A DNA stretch of 64,000 nt from the human T2T-CHM13v2.0 reference genome, Homo sapiens. How positions within the stretch are numbered: the stretch's first letter is position 1; every line of letters begins with the position of its first letter. The stretch is taken from assembly GCA_009914755.4 (NCBI GenBank), contig CP068257.2, forward strand, positions 384,001 through 448,000. The letters are read 5' to 3'. The notes under the pieces are model-generated. The model was not told the origin of the DNA. It did not search any database and saw only the letters and a list, made by a program, of their open reading frames with translations. Position numbers and translations under genes: made by a program. Shown here piece after piece: positions 8,101 through 12,895 of the stretch.

Positions 8101-8760
8101 TTATGGAATTAGAACTTGTGCTCCCCATTGTCATAATAAATCTCTCCCCCATAAATTTATAGGTACAGAAGTTGTAATTGGTTGAACAGTCCCAGGTTGT
8201 CCATCGGGCCCTTCACAATGCAAAATATAGCTACTTTGATACACTTCTGGGGCTTTAGCAGTTTCCACTGTGTTAAATTGAGTGGGCTGAATTGGCCACG
8301 TGGACGGCCAGTGCTGTAGAGAAATGATTGAAATGTCCGCTCCTACCAAAAAAAAAAAATATTATCTACCAAACCTTTAAAGTTCTTTCCCTGGATAGTT
8401 ATTTCACAGGTAGGATGTTTATCAGTAATTTGATTTACCCAATAAGCTGCCTTGCCTTTTTTATTTGTGCTTCCAAATCCTCCAGTTCATTTAATTTCAC
8501 TTTTTCCCATTCCCACATACGGCACACTCAGGAGCTGTGCTATGCGCACTTCTGGCTGTGCTTTCCAGGGAACAGAAGTAGATATCACAATTTGAATTTC
8601 CTCATTGTAATCTGAATTATTGACTCCAGTGTGTATTTGTACCCCTTTTAAACTTAAACTAGACCTTCTGAAAAGTAATCCCATTGTCCCTGTTGGCAAC
8701 GGTCCACAGACTCCTGTTGGGACCTTTTGCGGGGGTTCCCCAGGCAGAAGGCTCACAGCT
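8100..8760 (-). pseudogene. HERV-K-like protease plus dUTPase remnant
   Basis: Minus ORF 8131..8349: GADISIISLQHWPSTWP...EVYQSSYILHC.GPDGQPGTVQPITTSVPINLWGRDLL (retroviral aspartic protease). Minus ORF 8487..8756: KGVQIHTGVNNSDYNEEIQIV...RIAQLLSVPYV (dUTPase motifs, as in the betaretroviral pro frame). Confidence 0.8.
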
Positions 8761-10175
8761 TTTGTGCAGCATAAATCTACTGTGGCACTATGGCCTGTGG
8801 TGGGGGACAGATAATGTATGGAGGTGAGGGAATGGCCTGAGCTGGAAATGCCCTGGTTTAGAACAGGGCCTGGGATGGGCCCCTCAGGGAGTTTCCTGAA
8901 ATCGGATTCCCTTCTTTATCAAACCTAGAGTGACACTGATTAGCCCAAAGTTTTCCTTTTTTACATTTTGGACATATTTCAGGATCAGCAGTTTTCTTTT
9001 TTCCCCTATCTGGTGGCCTTACTCGCTGATTTTTTTTTCTACATTCTTTTTAGTATGACCATGCTTCCCACAGTTAAAACAAGCTCCAGGAAATGGAGTA
9101 TTTCCTTTATCCACTCTCAGTCCTGCCATCGCCTGTGCCAACAAAGTAGCTTTATGTAGATTACCTCTGATACTATCACAGGCCTTGATATAATCAACTA
9201 AATGTGCTTTCCCTCTGATAGGTCGCAGAGCAGCCTAGCAATAGTGATTAGCATTGTCAAAAGCTAATAACTGCAAAAGTATATCCTAAGCAGCCAAATC
9301 TGCAATCATCTTTTTAAGAGATTCCTGTAACCAAGCTACAAAATCCACGCATGTTTCTCTTGGTCCCTGTTTTATAGTACTAAAGGAAGGGTATTGTTCT
9401 CCACATGAAGTGATTTTTTCCAAGCTCTAATGCACACTCCTCTAAGCTGTTCTATGGCATCATCTTGCATGACCACTTGTGCATGTAAACCAGCCCAGCC
9501 ACCAACCCCCAAAAGTTGGTCTGCAGTTATATTAATCTGAGGTTGGGCCCAGGCATTGCGAGAAGCCTGAATGGAAGCTTCATCTGCCCACTAAGTTTTA
9601 AATCGTAAGAACTGAGCAGGAATTAGACAAGCTCGAGTAATAGTGTCCCAGTCAGTAGGAATCATCTGACTGGAAACAGCAACATTCTTTAACGGTCCCA
9701 TTTCAAAAGGAGAACCTGGTCCATACTGATTTATAGCGTGTTTAAATTTTTTGAGTAATTTAAAAGGAAAAGGCTCAAATGTAGCTATAATATTTCCCTG
9801 TTGATCTGCGGGGTGTATTCAAACAGGGAACTGCCAAGCCTCTAAATCCCACTTTTGTCTAGCTTGCTGAATTCCTGCCTGAATAGAACTAAGAGCAGTC
9901 GCTCAAGGCGCTGCTCGAACAGTCACCAGGGCAACTACTTTTCACCCAGTGTCCTCCAGAAAAGAAAGATCTGGAGGGTCGTTTTCTTCAAAATAATAAT
10001 GAGGGGGTGCAGAAGGGTAGGGATGAACCTCTCCTTCCTTTTCTGCTTTAGATTTAGGTGGCAAATAAACCTGGTCTGTAACCTCTACTGTTACTTTGTT
10101 ATACTCTCCTTCCTCCTCATCATCAGTGTGAAAAAGTTCCAAGGTAGAACGAACCACAGCCCACACTTGTCCCAT
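8760..10175 (-). pseudogene. HERV-K-like gag (copy 1), frameshifted
   Basis: A Met-Gly-Gln start at 10175 (minus) is followed by an acidic DDEEEGE stretch. A CA C-terminal homology block lies at 9120-9240. A zinc-knuckle remnant ...CPKCKKGK... is read from the reverse complement around 8950-8990. All are broken by stops and frameshifts. Confidence 0.7.
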
Positions 10176-10329
10176 TGTTACCCTGAAGCTTCCGAGCTCC
10201 CCTTCTTACTCACCACAGGGATTGCTTTAAGAGTACTCAGGTGTCCTCCAGCTAGTTCCACATTCTCCAATCGTTGCTCCAGAGATCCTTTGACCTATAT
10301 TTGAGCCCCCATGAATTTGCACCACTTGC

Positions 10330-10860
10330 TGAGACCAGGTCGGTCGGGGAGACCCTAACCCAGCAGCGCTAGAGGAATTAAAGATATATACACTGAAATA
10401 TAGAGGTGTGAAGTGGGAAATCAGGGGTCTCACAGCCTTCAGAGCTGAGAGCCCTGAACAGAGATTTACCCACGTATTTATTAACAGCAAGCCAGTCATT
10501 AGCATTGTTTCTATAGATATTAGATTAAGTAAAAGTATTCCTTATGGGAAACGAAGGGATGGGCTGAATTAAAGGAATAGGTTGGGCTAGTTAACTGCAG
10601 CAGAAGCATGTTCTTAAGGCACAGATCACTCATGCTATTGTTTGTGGCTTAAGAATGTTTTTAAGTGGTTTTTCACCCTGGACGGGCCAGGTATTCCTTG
10701 TCCTCATTCCAGTGAACCTACAACCTTACAGCGTGGGTGTTATGGCCATCATGAACATGTCACAGTGCTGCAGAGATTTTGTTTATGGCCAGTTTTGGGG
10801 CCAGTTTATGGCCGGATTTGAGGGGTCTTGTTCCCAACAGTTCCTCAGGGTAAGGGTGCC
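10330..10860 (-). mobile_element. LTR-like block (probable 5' LTR of the proximal provirus), ~530 bp
   Basis: Non-coding block between two gag copies. Its reverse complement contains a U3-like repeat GGCCATAAACTGGCCCCAAAACTGGCCATAAACAAAATCTCTGCAGCACTGTGACATG and an AATAAA signal (about 10474-10479 on the minus strand). A degenerate TGG-initiated PBS-like sequence (TGGTGCAAATTCATGGGGG) follows at about 10303-10321. This matches an R/U5-PBS arrangement. Confidence 0.55.
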
Positions 10861-12590
10861 CTAACGCCTGTGGGGACCTTCTTTGGTGGCTCCCCAGGAA
10901 GTAAGGAGATGGGAATTGTTCTGTAGAGGTCTACAGCAGCACTGCTTGCTGAGGCGGGGGACAATTGTTGTACATTTGTAAGGGCAGTGGCTGTGCTGGG
11001 TATGCCTCGGTTTGTTGAGGGGCTCAAGGTGGGTCCCTCTTCCTATTTCCTGAAAGAGGTTGCCCATCTTTGCTAAATTTAGAATGACATGGACTTGCCT
11101 AGTGATTGCCTTTCTTACACCAGGGACATACACTGGGACTTTTCTGTTGATTGATGGTAGTAGTTTTCGTCTTTTTAATTCCTTTCTACATTCCTTTCTT
11201 GTGTCCAATTTGCCCACAATTAAGGCAAGAGCCTGAGAAATGAAGCATATTTTTTCTTACTCTTAATCTAGTCATAGCCTGAGCTAAAAGAATAGCCTTA
11301 TGTAAGTTACCTCCAATGCCATCGCAGGCCTTAATATATTTAGTTAAATGAGCCTTCTCTCTCAGGGGTCTAATAGCAGTTTGACACTCTGCATTAGCAT
11401 TATTGTATGCAAGAAGCTGTATTACAACATCTTGAGCTGTTTTTATCATTTATGGCTTTATACACAGCCTCTTGGAGCTGAGCAATAAAATTAATATATG
11501 GTTGTTTAGGTCCTTGTCAGACAGAACTGAAATAAGGATACTTTTCCCCTGTAACATTTATCCTTTTCTATGCCTGTAAGCACATGAAGCACAGCTGAAC
11601 AATGGCAACATCTTCCATTACTGCTTGATTCTCTAATCAACCCCGGTTAGGGCCAACTCATATTAACTGATCAAAGAAAACAGGCACAGGTGGCTGCACT
11701 TCTGTGTTTTCATTTGCCTGAGTTTGAGCTTCATCAGCCTACCAAGTTTTAAACTGCAAGTACTGAGATGGAGTGAGAACAGGTTTTGTCAAAGTATCCT
11801 AATTATATAGTAGTAATCTATTACCAAGAGCCATATTTTTTAATAAAGTTTGCACAAAAAGAGAGTTCAGTCCATATTGACTAATGGCTTGCTTAAATTC
11901 TTTAGTAACTTAAAAGAAAAAACAGCCTAATTAGCTATATTCTGTCCTACTTGCTGGATTATAGTAACGGGAAATTGCCATGCTTCAAGGTCTCCCTTGG
12001 CTTTAGCTTTTTGAATAGAATTTTGTCTAGCACCACCAATTGCTCCAGGTCTTAATGTTGCAACTACAGGAGCAGTAAGTTTTTCAGCTAATTTATTTTC
12101 TCACCCATTTAGGGGAGAGAGAGGAGGTGGCCATTCACCTAATTCAGCAGGTGGAGCAAATGGGCTAATAAAACATACTTTTTAAAGTCTTTCTTTTCTT
12201 TAATCTCCTCCGGTAGCTGTTCTTCACACTCAGAATTTGAAGTTAGTTTTTTACACTCATCCTCCTCTTCCTCATCTGAATCTGCCTCATCATCTATTTG
12301 AAATGGCTCAAAGTCTGCCTTTGTTAGTGTCCACACTGACCATACAGAAACTGGAATTTTTGCTCCATCTTTATATGCCTTTTAAAAATCTCTTCCAATT
12401 CTCTCCCGTTCATCTAACTTCATACTCCTTTGTTCTGGAAACCATGGGCAAAACTGTTTTACTGTACTAAAGAGTGATAACAAATTCTAAGTACTAACTT
12501 TCACTCCCCATCTTTGTATGTCCTCGGGTGTCTTTTGATGATGTGTCCTCTGCTTTCACATGCTCTAGCCTTCCTTCATCAGGGTCTTTG
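10860..12590 (-). pseudogene. HERV-K-like gag (copy 2), diverged from copy 1
   Basis: Minus ORF 11186..11449: ...ANAECQTAIRPLREKAHLTKYIKACDGIGGNLHKAILLAQAMT...CLNCGQIGHKKG, a close match to the HERV-K CA C-terminus and first zinc knuckle. Minus ORF 10861..11217 holds a second knuckle remnant. Minus ORF 12139..12336 has an acidic DSDEEEEDE matrix/phosphoprotein-like stretch. Nucleotide comparison with copy 1 shows it is homologous but clearly diverged. Confidence 0.75.
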
Positions 12591-12591
12591 T

Positions 12592-12610
12592 CATCCCATG
12601 TTGGGCGCCA
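12592..12610 (-). promoter_or_regulatory. Primer-binding site, tRNA-Lys-like (TGGCGCCCAACATGGGATG)
   Basis: The reverse complement of 12592-12610 is TGGCGCCCAACATGGGATG, 15 of 18 identical to the tRNA-Lys(1,2) PBS TGGCGCCCAACGTGGGGC used by HERV-K. It lies between the LTR R/U5 (AATAAA at about 12779-12784) and gag copy 2. Confidence 0.7.
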
Positions 12611-12895
12611 AGAATGCTGGGGTGATCAGACCCAAAACAAGGTCATGGGGGTGACAAAGTCCGGTGGAGTTAAAGGAATGAGAAAAAGACAGTTTGAGAG
12701 AGAAAGTGGGACCAGGGGACCATCACAAGTGTGGAGTCTGCAAAGTCCCCAAGCTCTGGGAGCCCACGCTATTTATTGGTGCTCAAACAAAGAAACAGGT
12801 GGTGAGGATGTGGGGGTTGAAAGGAAACGGAGTATCAAGTGAATGAGAAACATATGGCCCTGCCTCAGCTTCTCTTCCAACACTCAGCTTTTCTC
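12611..12895 (-). mobile_element. Partial LTR (R/U5 portion) of the distal HERV-K-like provirus
   Basis: Lies immediately 5' (minus strand) of the Lys-PBS. Contains AATAAA-like CACCAATAAATAGCGTGGGCTCCCAG, similar to the corresponding segment of the 10330-10860 LTR. Ends where old L1 ORF2 sequence begins. Confidence 0.55.

What the first reader, a model, noticed from the sequence alone, without database searches (positions are those of the whole stretch)
8690..12895. Two diverged HERV-K-like gag copies in tandem on the minus strand, separated by an LTR-like block: a nested or recombinant provirus pair
On the minus strand the order is partial LTR (12895-12611), Lys-PBS, gag copy 2 (to about 10860, ending in the NC region where pro should begin), a ~530 bp LTR-like block (10860-10330), a degenerate PBS, gag copy 1, pro/dUTPase and pol. 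The two gag copies are clearly homologous (CA C-terminus KACDGIGG..., zinc knuckles, acidic stretches) but strongly diverged at the nucleotide level. They are therefore not a recent duplication. More likely they are two different HML-group proviruses, one inserted into the gag-pro junction of the other, or an old inter-element recombination. The downstream part of the interrupted provirus (pro-pol-env-3' LTR) is not evident in the window.
Basis: partly seen in the sequence, partly recalled or inferred. Interest (0 to 1): 0.7.

Follow-up and report, generated by a model that had tools for sequence, protein, structure and literature searches.

The report
Nested endogenous retroviruses, HML-3 inside HML-1
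This is an ordinary piece of primate "fossil virus" DNA: one ancient HERV-K-type retrovirus (HML-3) landed inside another (probably HML-1), and the far side of both was later lost.

Summary
On the minus strand there are two complete sets of betaretroviral Gag domains. They are only 65-70% identical in DNA and are separated by a 513-bp block (10839-10327).

That block is a true LTR. It runs TG...CA, carries AATAAA, and is followed by AG plus a Lys-type PBS. The same unit with the same ends recurs in 81 of the contigs fetched from public metagenomes, as 5' LTR, 3' LTR (after a polypurine tract) and apparent solo LTR.

The inner element is HML-3 (HERVK9/MER9): the env of a consensus-like family contig best matches the published HML3 Env consensus. 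It belongs to a widespread variant lacking 925 bp of RT. The outer element has its own LTR family, of which a ~600-bp copy exists; here ~300 bp are missing. It has a Lys PBS and is probably HML-1.

The inner LTR begins at its first base, ~90 nt past the outer gag stop and inside pro. This fits integration, not duplication or template-switch recombination. The TSD and the resumption of the outer provirus cannot be checked: the inner provirus breaks off near 6965, and no env, 3' LTR or L1 continuation exists in the window.

Nested ERVs are common, so interest is low. In passing: the composite and its flank are multi-copy, and the window ends in (GGAAT)n satellite.

The parts
12902..13664 (+). 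Old L1 ORF2 (reverse-transcriptase region) fragment, antisense to the ERVs. It is the target into which the outer provirus integrated; it stops exactly at the outer LTR.
   Evidence: ORF 12843-13148(+) reads ...[30 protein letters not shown]. 70.6% identity over 778 bp to the L1 copy at 40541-41314. No continuation of this L1 below 6965.
12615..12901 (-). Outer provirus 5' LTR (TGTTGGGAG...CCCCAGCA). It contains AATAAA and a 17-bp duplication at its 5' end. It lacks ~300 bp (between 12857 and 12824) present in a fuller copy of the same LTR family. Probably LTR14A/B type (HML-1).
   Evidence: sequence; the L004 tail carries a ~600-bp version preceded by a polypurine tract, AAAAAAAGAGAAGGGGGGCA|TGTTGGG; the LTR start translates to VGREAEAG, best matching the tail of the hml1a Env consensus (HVGRRAEAGLASLSM).
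12593..12610 (-). Outer primer-binding site TGGCGCCCAACATGGGAT. It matches 15 of 18 positions of the complement of the tRNA-Lys(CUU) 3' end (TGGCGCCCAACGTGGGGC).
   Evidence: sequence. The tRNA-Lys PBS sequence is established knowledge; the canonical 18/18 version is seen in L078.
10931..12511 (-). Outer gag (gag copy 2): MA(p10)-CA-NC with two zinc knuckles, many stops and frameshifts, and a ~107-bp deletion just after the ATG. It ends at its natural stop (…NNCPPPQQAVLL*).
   Evidence: Pfam Gag_p10, Gag_p24, Gag_p24_C and zf-CCHC_5. Frames. The deletion relative to L004 is at w12514/12518.
10840..10930 (-). Last ~90 nt of the outer provirus. It is the start of the pro/dUTPase frame (…SLLPGEPPKKVPTGVRAPLP*GT), cut off by the inner LTR.
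   Evidence: It is colinear with copy 1, SLLPGEPPQKVPTGVCGPLPTGTMGLLF, which Pfam calls dUTPase. The tblastx HSP runs to 10840-10842.
10327..10839 (-). Inner provirus 5' LTR, complete at 513 bp, TG...CA, with AATAAA. It belongs to the HML-3 (MER9-type) family.
   Evidence: 81 metagenome loci align to it and most start at 10839; the same unit occurs after a PPT (3' LTR), before AG+PBS (5' LTR) and between unrelated flanks (apparent solo LTRs).
10307..10324 (-). Inner PBS TGGTGCAAATTCATGGGG. It is a derivative of a subfamily-wide variant (TGGTGCCCATTCATGGGGGCTCGAATAC) of the Lys PBS.
   Evidence: the variant is shared by more than 15 contigs with different upstream contexts. The canonical TGGCGCCCAACGTGGGGC is present in L078.
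8777..10175 (-). Inner gag (gag copy 1): CA, CA-C and two zinc knuckles. There is no Gag_p10 domain, which is a family feature.
   Evidence: Pfam. The same MGQVWAVVRSTLELFH start is in the consensus-like L030. The exact 77-aa N-terminal ORF was seen on 18 public contigs.
8113..8819 (-). Inner pro: dUTPase (8819-8511) and retroviral aspartyl protease (8343-8113).
   Evidence: Pfam dUTPase E=2.5e-15 and RVP E=3.5e-13.
6965..7767 (-). Inner pol remnants. These are RT positions 1-100 only (7767-7546), a 925-bp deletion junction at 7520/7519, RNase H (7521-7315), a ~645-bp deletion junction at 7292/7287, and the IN C-terminal domain (7082-6996). Homology to the family ends at ~6965 (L030 position 5033).
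   Evidence: Pfam. Alignment to L030 and L034. The deletion junctions are shared with other loci.
6717..6964 (-). Break region: 35 bp of unassigned sequence (6964-6930), then an Alu (6929-6717) in the same orientation, cut off at Alu position 213. Everything expected downstream is missing beyond this point: inner env and 3' LTR, the outer pro-pol-3' LTR, and the other half of the L1.
   Evidence: Alu alignment. Sequence. The same junction is in L001, L070 and L074. No env, LTR or ERVK remnants elsewhere in the window.

Best explanation
The locus records a series of retroelement events, read here on the minus strand.

1. An HERV-K-type provirus with a Lys PBS and an LTR14A/B-like LTR (probably HML-1/HERVK14I) integrated into an old L1 ORF2 fragment.
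2. A defective HML-3 (HERVK9I/MER9) genome integrated into that provirus, ~90 nt past its gag stop and inside pro/dUTPase. This genome already lacked 925 bp of RT, so it must have been copied with proteins supplied in trans. The event placed a complete HML-3 5' LTR, PBS, gag, pro and pol directly after the outer gag.
3. A later deletion or rearrangement with a breakpoint near 6965 (next to an Alu that is itself truncated at 6717) removed the inner env and 3' LTR, the rest of the outer provirus and the other half of the L1.
4. Both elements are now dead: every ORF has stops or frameshifts.

Shown: two lineages, a complete inner LTR with an exact 5' end, colinearity of each part with its family, and absence of the 3' halves. 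Inferred: integrase-mediated insertion (no TSD is available), the order and cause of the truncation, and the HML-1 label.
For: - Two Gag domain sets plus a single pro-pol.
- gag1 and gag2 are 65-70% identical in DNA and 44-62% in protein.
- The inner LTR recurs with identical ends in 81 loci in 5' LTR, 3' LTR and apparent solo contexts.
- Family alignments start exactly at 10839, the T of TGTTGGG.
- The window's inner provirus is colinear with the 6.5-kb family unit L030 apart from two deletions.
- The RT deletion junction is present in 12 loci with different PBS subtypes and flanks.
- L030 env matches the published hml3a consensus at 69-86%, against 26-57% for the independent HML1a, 2, 4, 7, 9 and 10 consensuses. 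The one closer consensus, hml1b (60-68%), is labelled by its authors as 97% similar to hml3a.
- The outer LTR family has its own PPT and a ~600-bp version. Its start encodes the hml1a Env tail.
- Vargiu et al. 2016 (PMC4724089) give LTR14A,B and PBS K for HML1, and MER9 and PBS K for HML3.
- There is no second copy of either LTR, no env and no L1 continuation in the 64 kb.
Against: - The two classical proofs of nesting cannot be seen, because the 3' side is missing in the window and in every related contig. These proofs are a 5-6-bp target-site duplication around the inner element, and the outer pro resuming after the inner 3' LTR.
- The HML-1 assignment rests on a short (8-15 aa) match of the LTR start to an Env consensus tail and on LTR length. 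It does not rest on a comparison with Dfam HERVK14-int or LTR14A/B.
- The metagenome contigs used as family references are mosaic assemblies. They define family features but not individual loci.
Confidence: 0.85

Rival explanations
1. Two independent, neighbouring insertions: an HML-1-like provirus and an HML-3 provirus in tandem in the L1. A deletion then fused them by removing the outer 3' half and the spacer.
For: The locus has clearly suffered other deletions or rearrangements. These include the break at ~6965, the truncated Alu at 6717 and internal deletions. No TSD is available to prove integration at 10840/10839.
Against: The deletion would have had to end exactly at the first base of the inner LTR. 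All family copies start at that base, 10839. No spacer or microhomology scar is present.
Confidence: 0.07
2. A recombinant HML-1/HML-3 retrovirus, formed by template switching between co-packaged RNAs or by inter-provirus recombination, that spread as a unit by retrotransposition.
For: HML1 chains with HERVK9-like pro, pol or env are flagged as possible recombinants in Vargiu 2016. The same composite occurs in 17 contigs.
Against: A complete internal LTR followed by its own PBS is not a product of template switching. All contigs that extend past the outer LTR carry the same non-ERV flank (window 12902-18224) at 97-98% identity. The copies therefore arose by genomic duplication, not reintegration. 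They fail the published criteria of different flanks and no third internal LTR.
Confidence: 0.03
3. Internal tandem duplication of gag within one provirus, followed by divergence.
For: The two gag copies are colinear and in the same orientation.
Against: The copies are only 65-70% identical, and each matches its own family far better: gag1 is 92.6% identical to the HML-3 unit L030. Only copy 2 has Gag_p10. An LTR of a different family, not found next to copy 2's own LTR type, lies between them.
Confidence: 0.01

Closest known systems
HERV-K(HML-3) = HERVK9I with MER9 LTRs
   Same: The inner element has a ~513-bp LTR that recurs as 5', 3' and apparent solo LTR, a Lys-type PBS, a PPT (AAAGAAGGGGGACA) and gag-dUTPase/pro-pol. 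The family env best matches the published hml3a consensus.
   Different: This copy is a defective variant. It lacks 925 bp of RT (family-wide variant) and a further ~645 bp, and it has lost env and the 3' LTR. Its PBS belongs to a diverged subfamily. It was not compared directly with the Dfam or Repbase consensus, which is not available here.
HERV-K(HML-1) = HERVK14I with LTR14A/B
   Same: The outer element has a Lys PBS, a two-knuckle betaretroviral gag with MA(p10), and an LTR family of ~600 bp. The first ~45 nt of that LTR encode the tail of the hml1a Env consensus. The stretch just upstream of the PPT in the fuller copy (L004 tail) gave no Env match. From memory of Flockerzi et al. 2005 (J Virol 79:2941, not held here), this fits reports that most HERV-K14I loci lack env and show uniform LTR deletions.
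   Different: Only the 5' LTR, gag and ~90 nt of pro survive, so there is no pol on which HML groups are defined. The assignment is indirect. HML-9 and HML-10 (other LTR14 types) are disfavoured only by the short Env-tail comparison.
Noncanonical 'mosaic' HERV chains produced by secondary integration (Vargiu et al. 2016, PMC4724089)
   Same: A provirus is interrupted by an LTR element of another group. That paper classed 61% of HERV chains in hg19 as noncanonical and named HML1, HML2 and HML3 as the class II groups most often involved.
   Different: Most published examples leave a solo LTR inside the host provirus. Here most of the inserted provirus is retained, and the 3' halves of both elements are gone.
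Proviruses copied by segmental duplication (e.g. the two HML10/C4 copies; 7% of chains in Vargiu 2016)
   Same: The composite plus at least 5 kb of non-ERV flank is found in many 94-98% identical versions.
   Different: The copy number and chromosomal location were not determined here. The contigs are mosaic assemblies.

Membership tests
Class II (betaretrovirus-like, HERV-K/HML supergroup) ERV | LTRs bounded by TG...CA, with the PBS 2-4 nt downstream | tested here: met
   Inner LTR: TGTTGGG...TCAGCA, then AG, then the PBS. Outer LTR: TGTTGGG...CCAGCA, then TTCT, then the PBS.
Class II (betaretrovirus-like, HERV-K/HML supergroup) ERV | PBS complementary to tRNA-Lys | tested here: met
   The outer PBS matches TGGCGCCCAACGTGGGGC at 15/18 positions. 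The inner PBS is degenerate, but its family includes an 18/18 copy (L078).
Class II (betaretrovirus-like, HERV-K/HML supergroup) ERV | Gag with CA (p24) and two CCHC zinc knuckles; dUTPase in pro; RT, RNase H and IN | tested here: met
   Pfam Gag_p24, Gag_p24_C and zf-CCHC_5 twice, plus dUTPase, RVP, RVT_1, RNase_H and IN_DBD_C. Both knuckles are readable in each copy. G-patch was not detected.
HML-3 (HERVK9I/MER9), inner element | Internal sequence and env of HML-3 type | tested here: met
   The window's inner provirus is 92.6% identical and colinear with the family unit L030. L030 env matches the hml3a consensus at 69-86%, against 26-57% for the independent consensuses of other HML groups; hml1b (60-68%) is itself HML3-like by its authors' label.
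HML-3 (HERVK9I/MER9), inner element | LTR matches the Dfam/Repbase MER9 consensus | not testable with these tools
   No Dfam or RepeatMasker is available. Indirect support: LTR length is ~513 bp, and the PPT-LTR junction encodes GGHVGSRP, close to the hml3a tail GGHAGSRP. My recollection of MER9 agrees but is not a test.
HML-1 (HERVK14I/LTR14A,B), outer element | LTR of LTR14A/B type | tested here: inconclusive
   The LTR start encodes VGREAEAG (window) or EAEAGLACLT (L004), compared with the hml1a tail HVGRRAEAGLASLSM. This is the best of 7 HML tails, but the match is short.
HML-1 (HERVK14I/LTR14A,B), outer element | pol (RT) clusters with HML-1 | not testable with these tools
   The outer provirus has no pol left in the window.
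Nested (secondary) proviral integration | Inserted element begins with a complete LTR whose first base abuts host-provirus sequence | tested here: met
   Family alignments begin at 10839. Position 10840 is outer pro sequence.
Nested (secondary) proviral integration | 5-6-bp target-site duplication and resumption of the host provirus after the inserted 3' LTR | not testable with these tools
   The inner 3' LTR and everything beyond it are absent from the window. No fetched contig shows an inner LTR followed by (A)GGAAC plus pro.
Retrotransposed recombinant provirus (criteria of Vargiu 2016) | Same mosaic with different flanks, the same LTR at both ends and no third internal LTR | tested here: not met
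   The copies share their flank at 97-98% identity. An internal LTR of another family is present, and there are no 3' LTRs.

The most novel reading that the evidence does not exclude
The truncated HML-1/HML-3 composite may be embedded in a duplicon of at least 11-13 kb (window ~6911 to at least 19791). This duplicon would have been amplified to many copies (about ten or more, 1-3% diverged) in satellite-adjacent, possibly pericentromeric or acrocentric, DNA. If so, the nest is a shared derived marker that dates and traces the duplication family, and some copies may lie in regions that were long unassembled. The fact that the inner element belongs to an RT-deleted HML-3 variant found at many loci would also make it a trans-mobilised, non-autonomous HML-3 subfamily.
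Probability: 0.55. Interest if true: 0.25.

Novelty: already known. Interest (0 to 1): 0.12.

Why it matters
It matters little on its own. Nested and mosaic HERV-K loci are routine: 61% of HERV chains in hg19 were classed as noncanonical (PMC4724089), and standard repeat annotation would label this locus.

It has some practical value:
- It is a clean example for annotation pipelines that might call a single "recombinant" provirus with two gags.
- The exact HML-1-pro | HML-3-LTR junction and the break near 6965 are locus-family-specific markers. They could be used to count and date the paralogous copies of this satellite-adjacent duplicon.
- It shows that an RT-deleted HML-3 variant was able to integrate, so it was complemented in trans.

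Tried and rejected
- **Second LTR copies.** Self-BLAST of both LTRs and both gags against the 64 kb found no second copy of either LTR.
- **Other half of the L1.** Two L1 20-mers and BLAST of other L1 copies found nothing below 6965. 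I first misread the L1 as sense to the ERVs. ORF 12843-13148(+) shows it is antisense. The conclusion does not change, because both strands were searched.
- **Env and other ERVK remnants.** tblastn of eight HML Env consensuses (HML1a/1b, 2, 3, 4, 7, 9, 10) and tblastx of the HML-3 unit against the whole window found nothing outside 6900-12950.
- **Orthologues.** The look-up of encoding contigs with a window ORF returned only one 864-bp metagenome contig.
- **Collection scans.** Viral-contig scans with both LTR patterns gave 0 hits. The genome-contig scan with the outer-LTR 19-mer gave 2 hits in prokaryotic contigs (an archaeal MAG and an Aquimarina genome). I took these to be chance matches and did not inspect them further.
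- **L070 as the untruncated locus.** Rejected. Its left part is the 5S rDNA unit joined through the Alu, which is an assembly chimera. L019, L026 and L057, where the inner LTR is followed by unrelated DNA, are likewise chimeras and not solo-LTR paralogues.
- **TSD length from apparent solo LTR contigs.** Inconsistent (one 6-bp duplication with a mismatch, one 5-bp, several none), because the contigs are mosaics.
- **Nucleotide consensus file of Vargiu 2016.** It is cut before the HML groups. Flockerzi 2005 and the supplement of PMC12884080 are not held.
- **Rfam.** No hits in the window.

Full report
**What is there**

The window is primate (human-like) genomic DNA rich in Alu and L1. I translated the minus strand of 6900-12900 in three frames and scanned it against Pfam. 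The scan found two separate sets of retroviral Gag domains followed by one pro-pol.
- Copy 2: Gag_p10 12516-12316, Gag_p24, Gag_p24_C 11543-11327, a CCHC knuckle.
- Copy 1: Gag_p24 9779-9414, Gag_p24_C 9393-9181, zf-CCHC_5 8983-8882.
- Then: dUTPase 8819-8511, protease 8343-8113, the first 100 positions of RT 7767-7546, RNase H 7521-7315 and the integrase C-terminal domain 7082-6996.

The two gag regions align colinearly at only 64.6-69.7% nucleotide identity and 44-62% amino-acid identity per main HSP. The copies are far too diverged to be a recent duplication.

**The block between the gags is a true LTR**

A 20-mer from the block retrieved 85 contigs from public metagenome assemblies. At least some are labelled human skin or gut metagenomes, and I treat them as human contamination. 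Of these loci, 81 align to the block, and most alignments begin exactly at 10839, the T of TGTTGGGAAC. The alignments end at 10327 (…GGTCTCAGCA).

The same 513-bp unit occurs in three contexts:
- preceded by a polypurine tract (…TTTGCAAATCAAAGAAGGGGGACA|TGT…), that is, as a 3' LTR;
- followed by AG plus a Lys-type PBS, as a 5' LTR;
- between unrelated flanks, as an apparent solo LTR.

Several contigs carry two copies about 6.5 kb apart (L011, L024, L030). L030 is a circularly assembled, consensus-like LTR-plus-internal unit of 6525 bp.

**Which families**

Dfam and RepeatMasker are not available. I used the HML Env consensus sequences published as supplement 4 of Vargiu et al. 2016 (PMC4724089).

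The env region of L030 matches hml3a at 69-86% identity, against 26-57% for hml1a, 2a, 4a, 7a, 9a and 10a. The only closer consensus is hml1b (60-68%), which the authors themselves label 97% similar to hml3a. The window's inner provirus is 92.6% identical and colinear with L030. The inner element is therefore HML-3, which that paper equates with HERVK9I/MER9 and PBS K.

The outer LTR (12901-12615) belongs to a different family.
- A fuller copy, about 600 bp, sits in the tail of contig L004. It is preceded by its own PPT (AAAAAAAGAGAAGGGGGGCA|TGTTGGG).
- Relative to that copy, the window lacks ~300 bp between 12857 and 12824.
- The first ~45 nt of this LTR encode …EAEAGLACLT (L004) or VGREAEAG (window). 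Of seven HML Env tails that read into their LTRs, this best matches hml1a (HVGRRAEAGLASLSM). The same test on L030 picks hml3a.
- With the Lys PBS (TGGCGCCCAACATGGGAT, 15/18), this makes HML-1 (HERVK14I, LTR14A/B) the likely outer group. I put this at about 0.7, because the test is short and no outer pol survives.

**Anatomy of the junctions**

The outer LTR starts at its first base directly against an old L1 ORF2 fragment. That fragment lies on the plus strand at 12902-13664. The outer gag runs from the ATG at 12511 to its natural stop at 10933-10931. The outer sequence then continues ~90 nt in the pro/dUTPase frame (…LLPGEPPKKVPTGVRAPLP*GT), colinear with copy 1 (…LLPGEPPQKVPTGVCGPLPTGTMGLLF), until 10840. 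The inner LTR starts at 10839.

A complete U3-R-U5 that begins at its terminal TG inside another provirus, and is followed by its own PBS, gag, pro and pol, is what integrase-mediated secondary integration produces. Template switching or homologous recombination would not leave an internal LTR. A fusing deletion would have had to end precisely at the LTR's first base.

**Family features versus local damage**

Several oddities of the inner element belong to its subfamily and did not arise at this locus.
- The degenerate PBS derives from a variant (TGGTGCCCATTCATGGGGGCTCGAATAC) shared by more than 15 contigs with different upstream contexts.
- The gag that starts MGQVWAVVRSTLELFH and lacks Gag_p10 is also in L030.
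- The 925-bp RT deletion (L030 2915→3840; window 7520/7519) has an identical junction in 12 loci with different PBS subtypes and flanks.

The inserted genome was therefore already RT-defective and must have been mobilised in trans (inference). The second deletion (~645 bp; 7292/7287) is rarer, found in L001, L034 and L085. L034, a 5024-bp unit, has both deletions.

**What is missing**

Homology to the HML-3 unit ends at about 6965 (L030 position 5033). Then come 35 unassigned bases and an Alu (6929-6717) that is itself cut at Alu position 213. The 64 kb holds none of the following:
- a second copy of either LTR;
- a match to the HML Env consensuses tested;
- further ERVK-like coding sequence;
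- the other half of the L1.

A later deletion or rearrangement thus removed the inner env and 3' LTR, the outer pro-pol-3' LTR and the L1 remainder. As a result, the target-site duplication (expected (A)GGAAC) and the resumption of the outer pro cannot be checked here. No retrieved contig shows them either.

**Multi-copy context (side finding)**

Seventeen contigs carry the same outer-pro|inner-LTR junction. Those that extend further also carry the same outer LTR, the L1 flank and non-ERV DNA up to window 18224. They are 94-98% identical to the window and differ 1-2.5% from one another. High-identity coverage spans 6911-18224 and is bounded by Alus where contigs break.

An ORF further out (19273-19791) sits in a 90% cluster with 39 variants; those I compared differ from it by 1-6 residues. 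The window ends in about 1.7 kb of (GGAAT)n-type satellite.

The composite was therefore duplicated together with its flanks (segmental duplication), after the nesting and after the truncation. It was not duplicated by retrotransposition.

Caution is needed. These contigs are mosaic assemblies: L070 is joined through the Alu to a 5S rDNA unit, three contigs jump from the LTR into unrelated DNA, and contigs that appear to represent the same repeat unit in different samples differ by 4-5%. Copy number and location remain undetermined.

**Comparison with what is known, and verdict**

Secondary integrations and mosaic HERV chains are common. Vargiu et al. classed 61% of hg19 chains as noncanonical, with HML1, HML2 and HML3 the class II groups most often involved. 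They list HML1 chains with HERVK9-like pro, pol or env as possible recombinants, and 7% of chains were duplicated together with their flanks.

The finding is a correct reading of an ordinary locus: a nested HML-3-in-HML-1(-like) provirus pair, truncated on its 3' side and sitting in duplicated, satellite-adjacent DNA. Novelty: already known kind. Interest: low.

Noticed in passing
window 6911-18224 (and probably to at least 19791); loci L003, L004, L019, L026, L029, L044, L045, L049, L050, L052, L054, L057, L070, L075, L077, L079, L081: The whole composite plus at least 5 kb of non-ERV flank recurs in metagenome (human-contaminant) contigs. These are 94-98% identical to the window and 1-2.5% different from each other. 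This indicates a multi-copy duplicon family rather than a single-copy locus. The flank ORF 19273-19791 belongs to a cluster of 39 variants.
   Followed up: partly
window 62244-64000: The window ends in a (GGAAT)n/(ATTCC)n satellite array of HSat2/3 type (TRF period 5, ~313 copies). This suggests a pericentromeric or heterochromatin-adjacent location.
   Followed up: no
window 7519/7520; loci L001, L002, L003, L012, L034, L042, L051, L060, L067, L070, L078, L084: The 925-bp RT deletion of the inner HML-3 has an identical junction (GCGTTTTCATTG|TTTCACAGATGGG) in 12 contigs with different PBS subtypes and contexts. This is a family-wide, presumably trans-mobilised, deletion variant. A second ~645-bp deletion (7287/7292) is shared only with L001, L034 and L085.
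   Followed up: partly
loci L002-L086, downstream of the inner-family LTR (e.g. L021, L022, L030, L078): The HML-3 PBS region stays similar to tRNA-Lys beyond the canonical 18 nt (TGGCGYCCA..GTGGGGGCTCGAAYCC against TGGCGCCCAACGTGGGGCTCGAACCC). It splits into at least two subfamily variants. The window belongs to the TGGTGCCCATTCATGGGGGCTCGAATAC type.
   Followed up: no
window 12865-12901 and 12824-12857: The outer LTR has a 17-19-bp tandem duplication at its very 5' end (TGTTGGGAGAAAAGCTGAG TGTTGGAAGAGAAGCTGAG), also present in L004. It lacks ~300 bp relative to the ~600-bp version in L004. The short form is shared by the paralogous contigs, so it may be a subfamily (LTR14A-like?) feature rather than a local deletion.
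   Followed up: partly
window 6717-6929: An Alu in the same orientation as the ERVs is cut at Alu position 213 and joined to unrelated sequence. This is unusual for an Alu, since 3' truncation is not expected from insertion. It is a candidate rearrangement or duplicon breakpoint. The Alu/ERV junction itself is shared with L001, L070 and L074.
   Followed up: partly
L070 1-2612; L004 9394-9421: There are assembly artefacts in the public contigs. L070 joins this locus to the 2.2-kb 5S rDNA repeat through an Alu (5S rRNA gene antisense at ~2190-2310). L004 ends in an Illumina adapter (AGATCGGAAGAGCACACGTCTGAACTCC).
   Followed up: yes
window 9942-10175; L030 278-: HML-3 gag of this type starts MGQVWAVVRSTLELFH and has no Gag_p10 (MA) domain, in the family unit as well as in the window. 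The exact 77-aa ORF of the window is on 18 public contigs, in a cluster of 436 variants.
   Followed up: partly
window 38000-45000 (minus strand) and 55572-57312: There are younger L1 copies with long ORF2 and ORF1 fragments (e.g. ORFs 40599-41480, 42379-42966, 43550-43981). They are 88-90% identical to each other and are unrelated to the finding.
   Followed up: no
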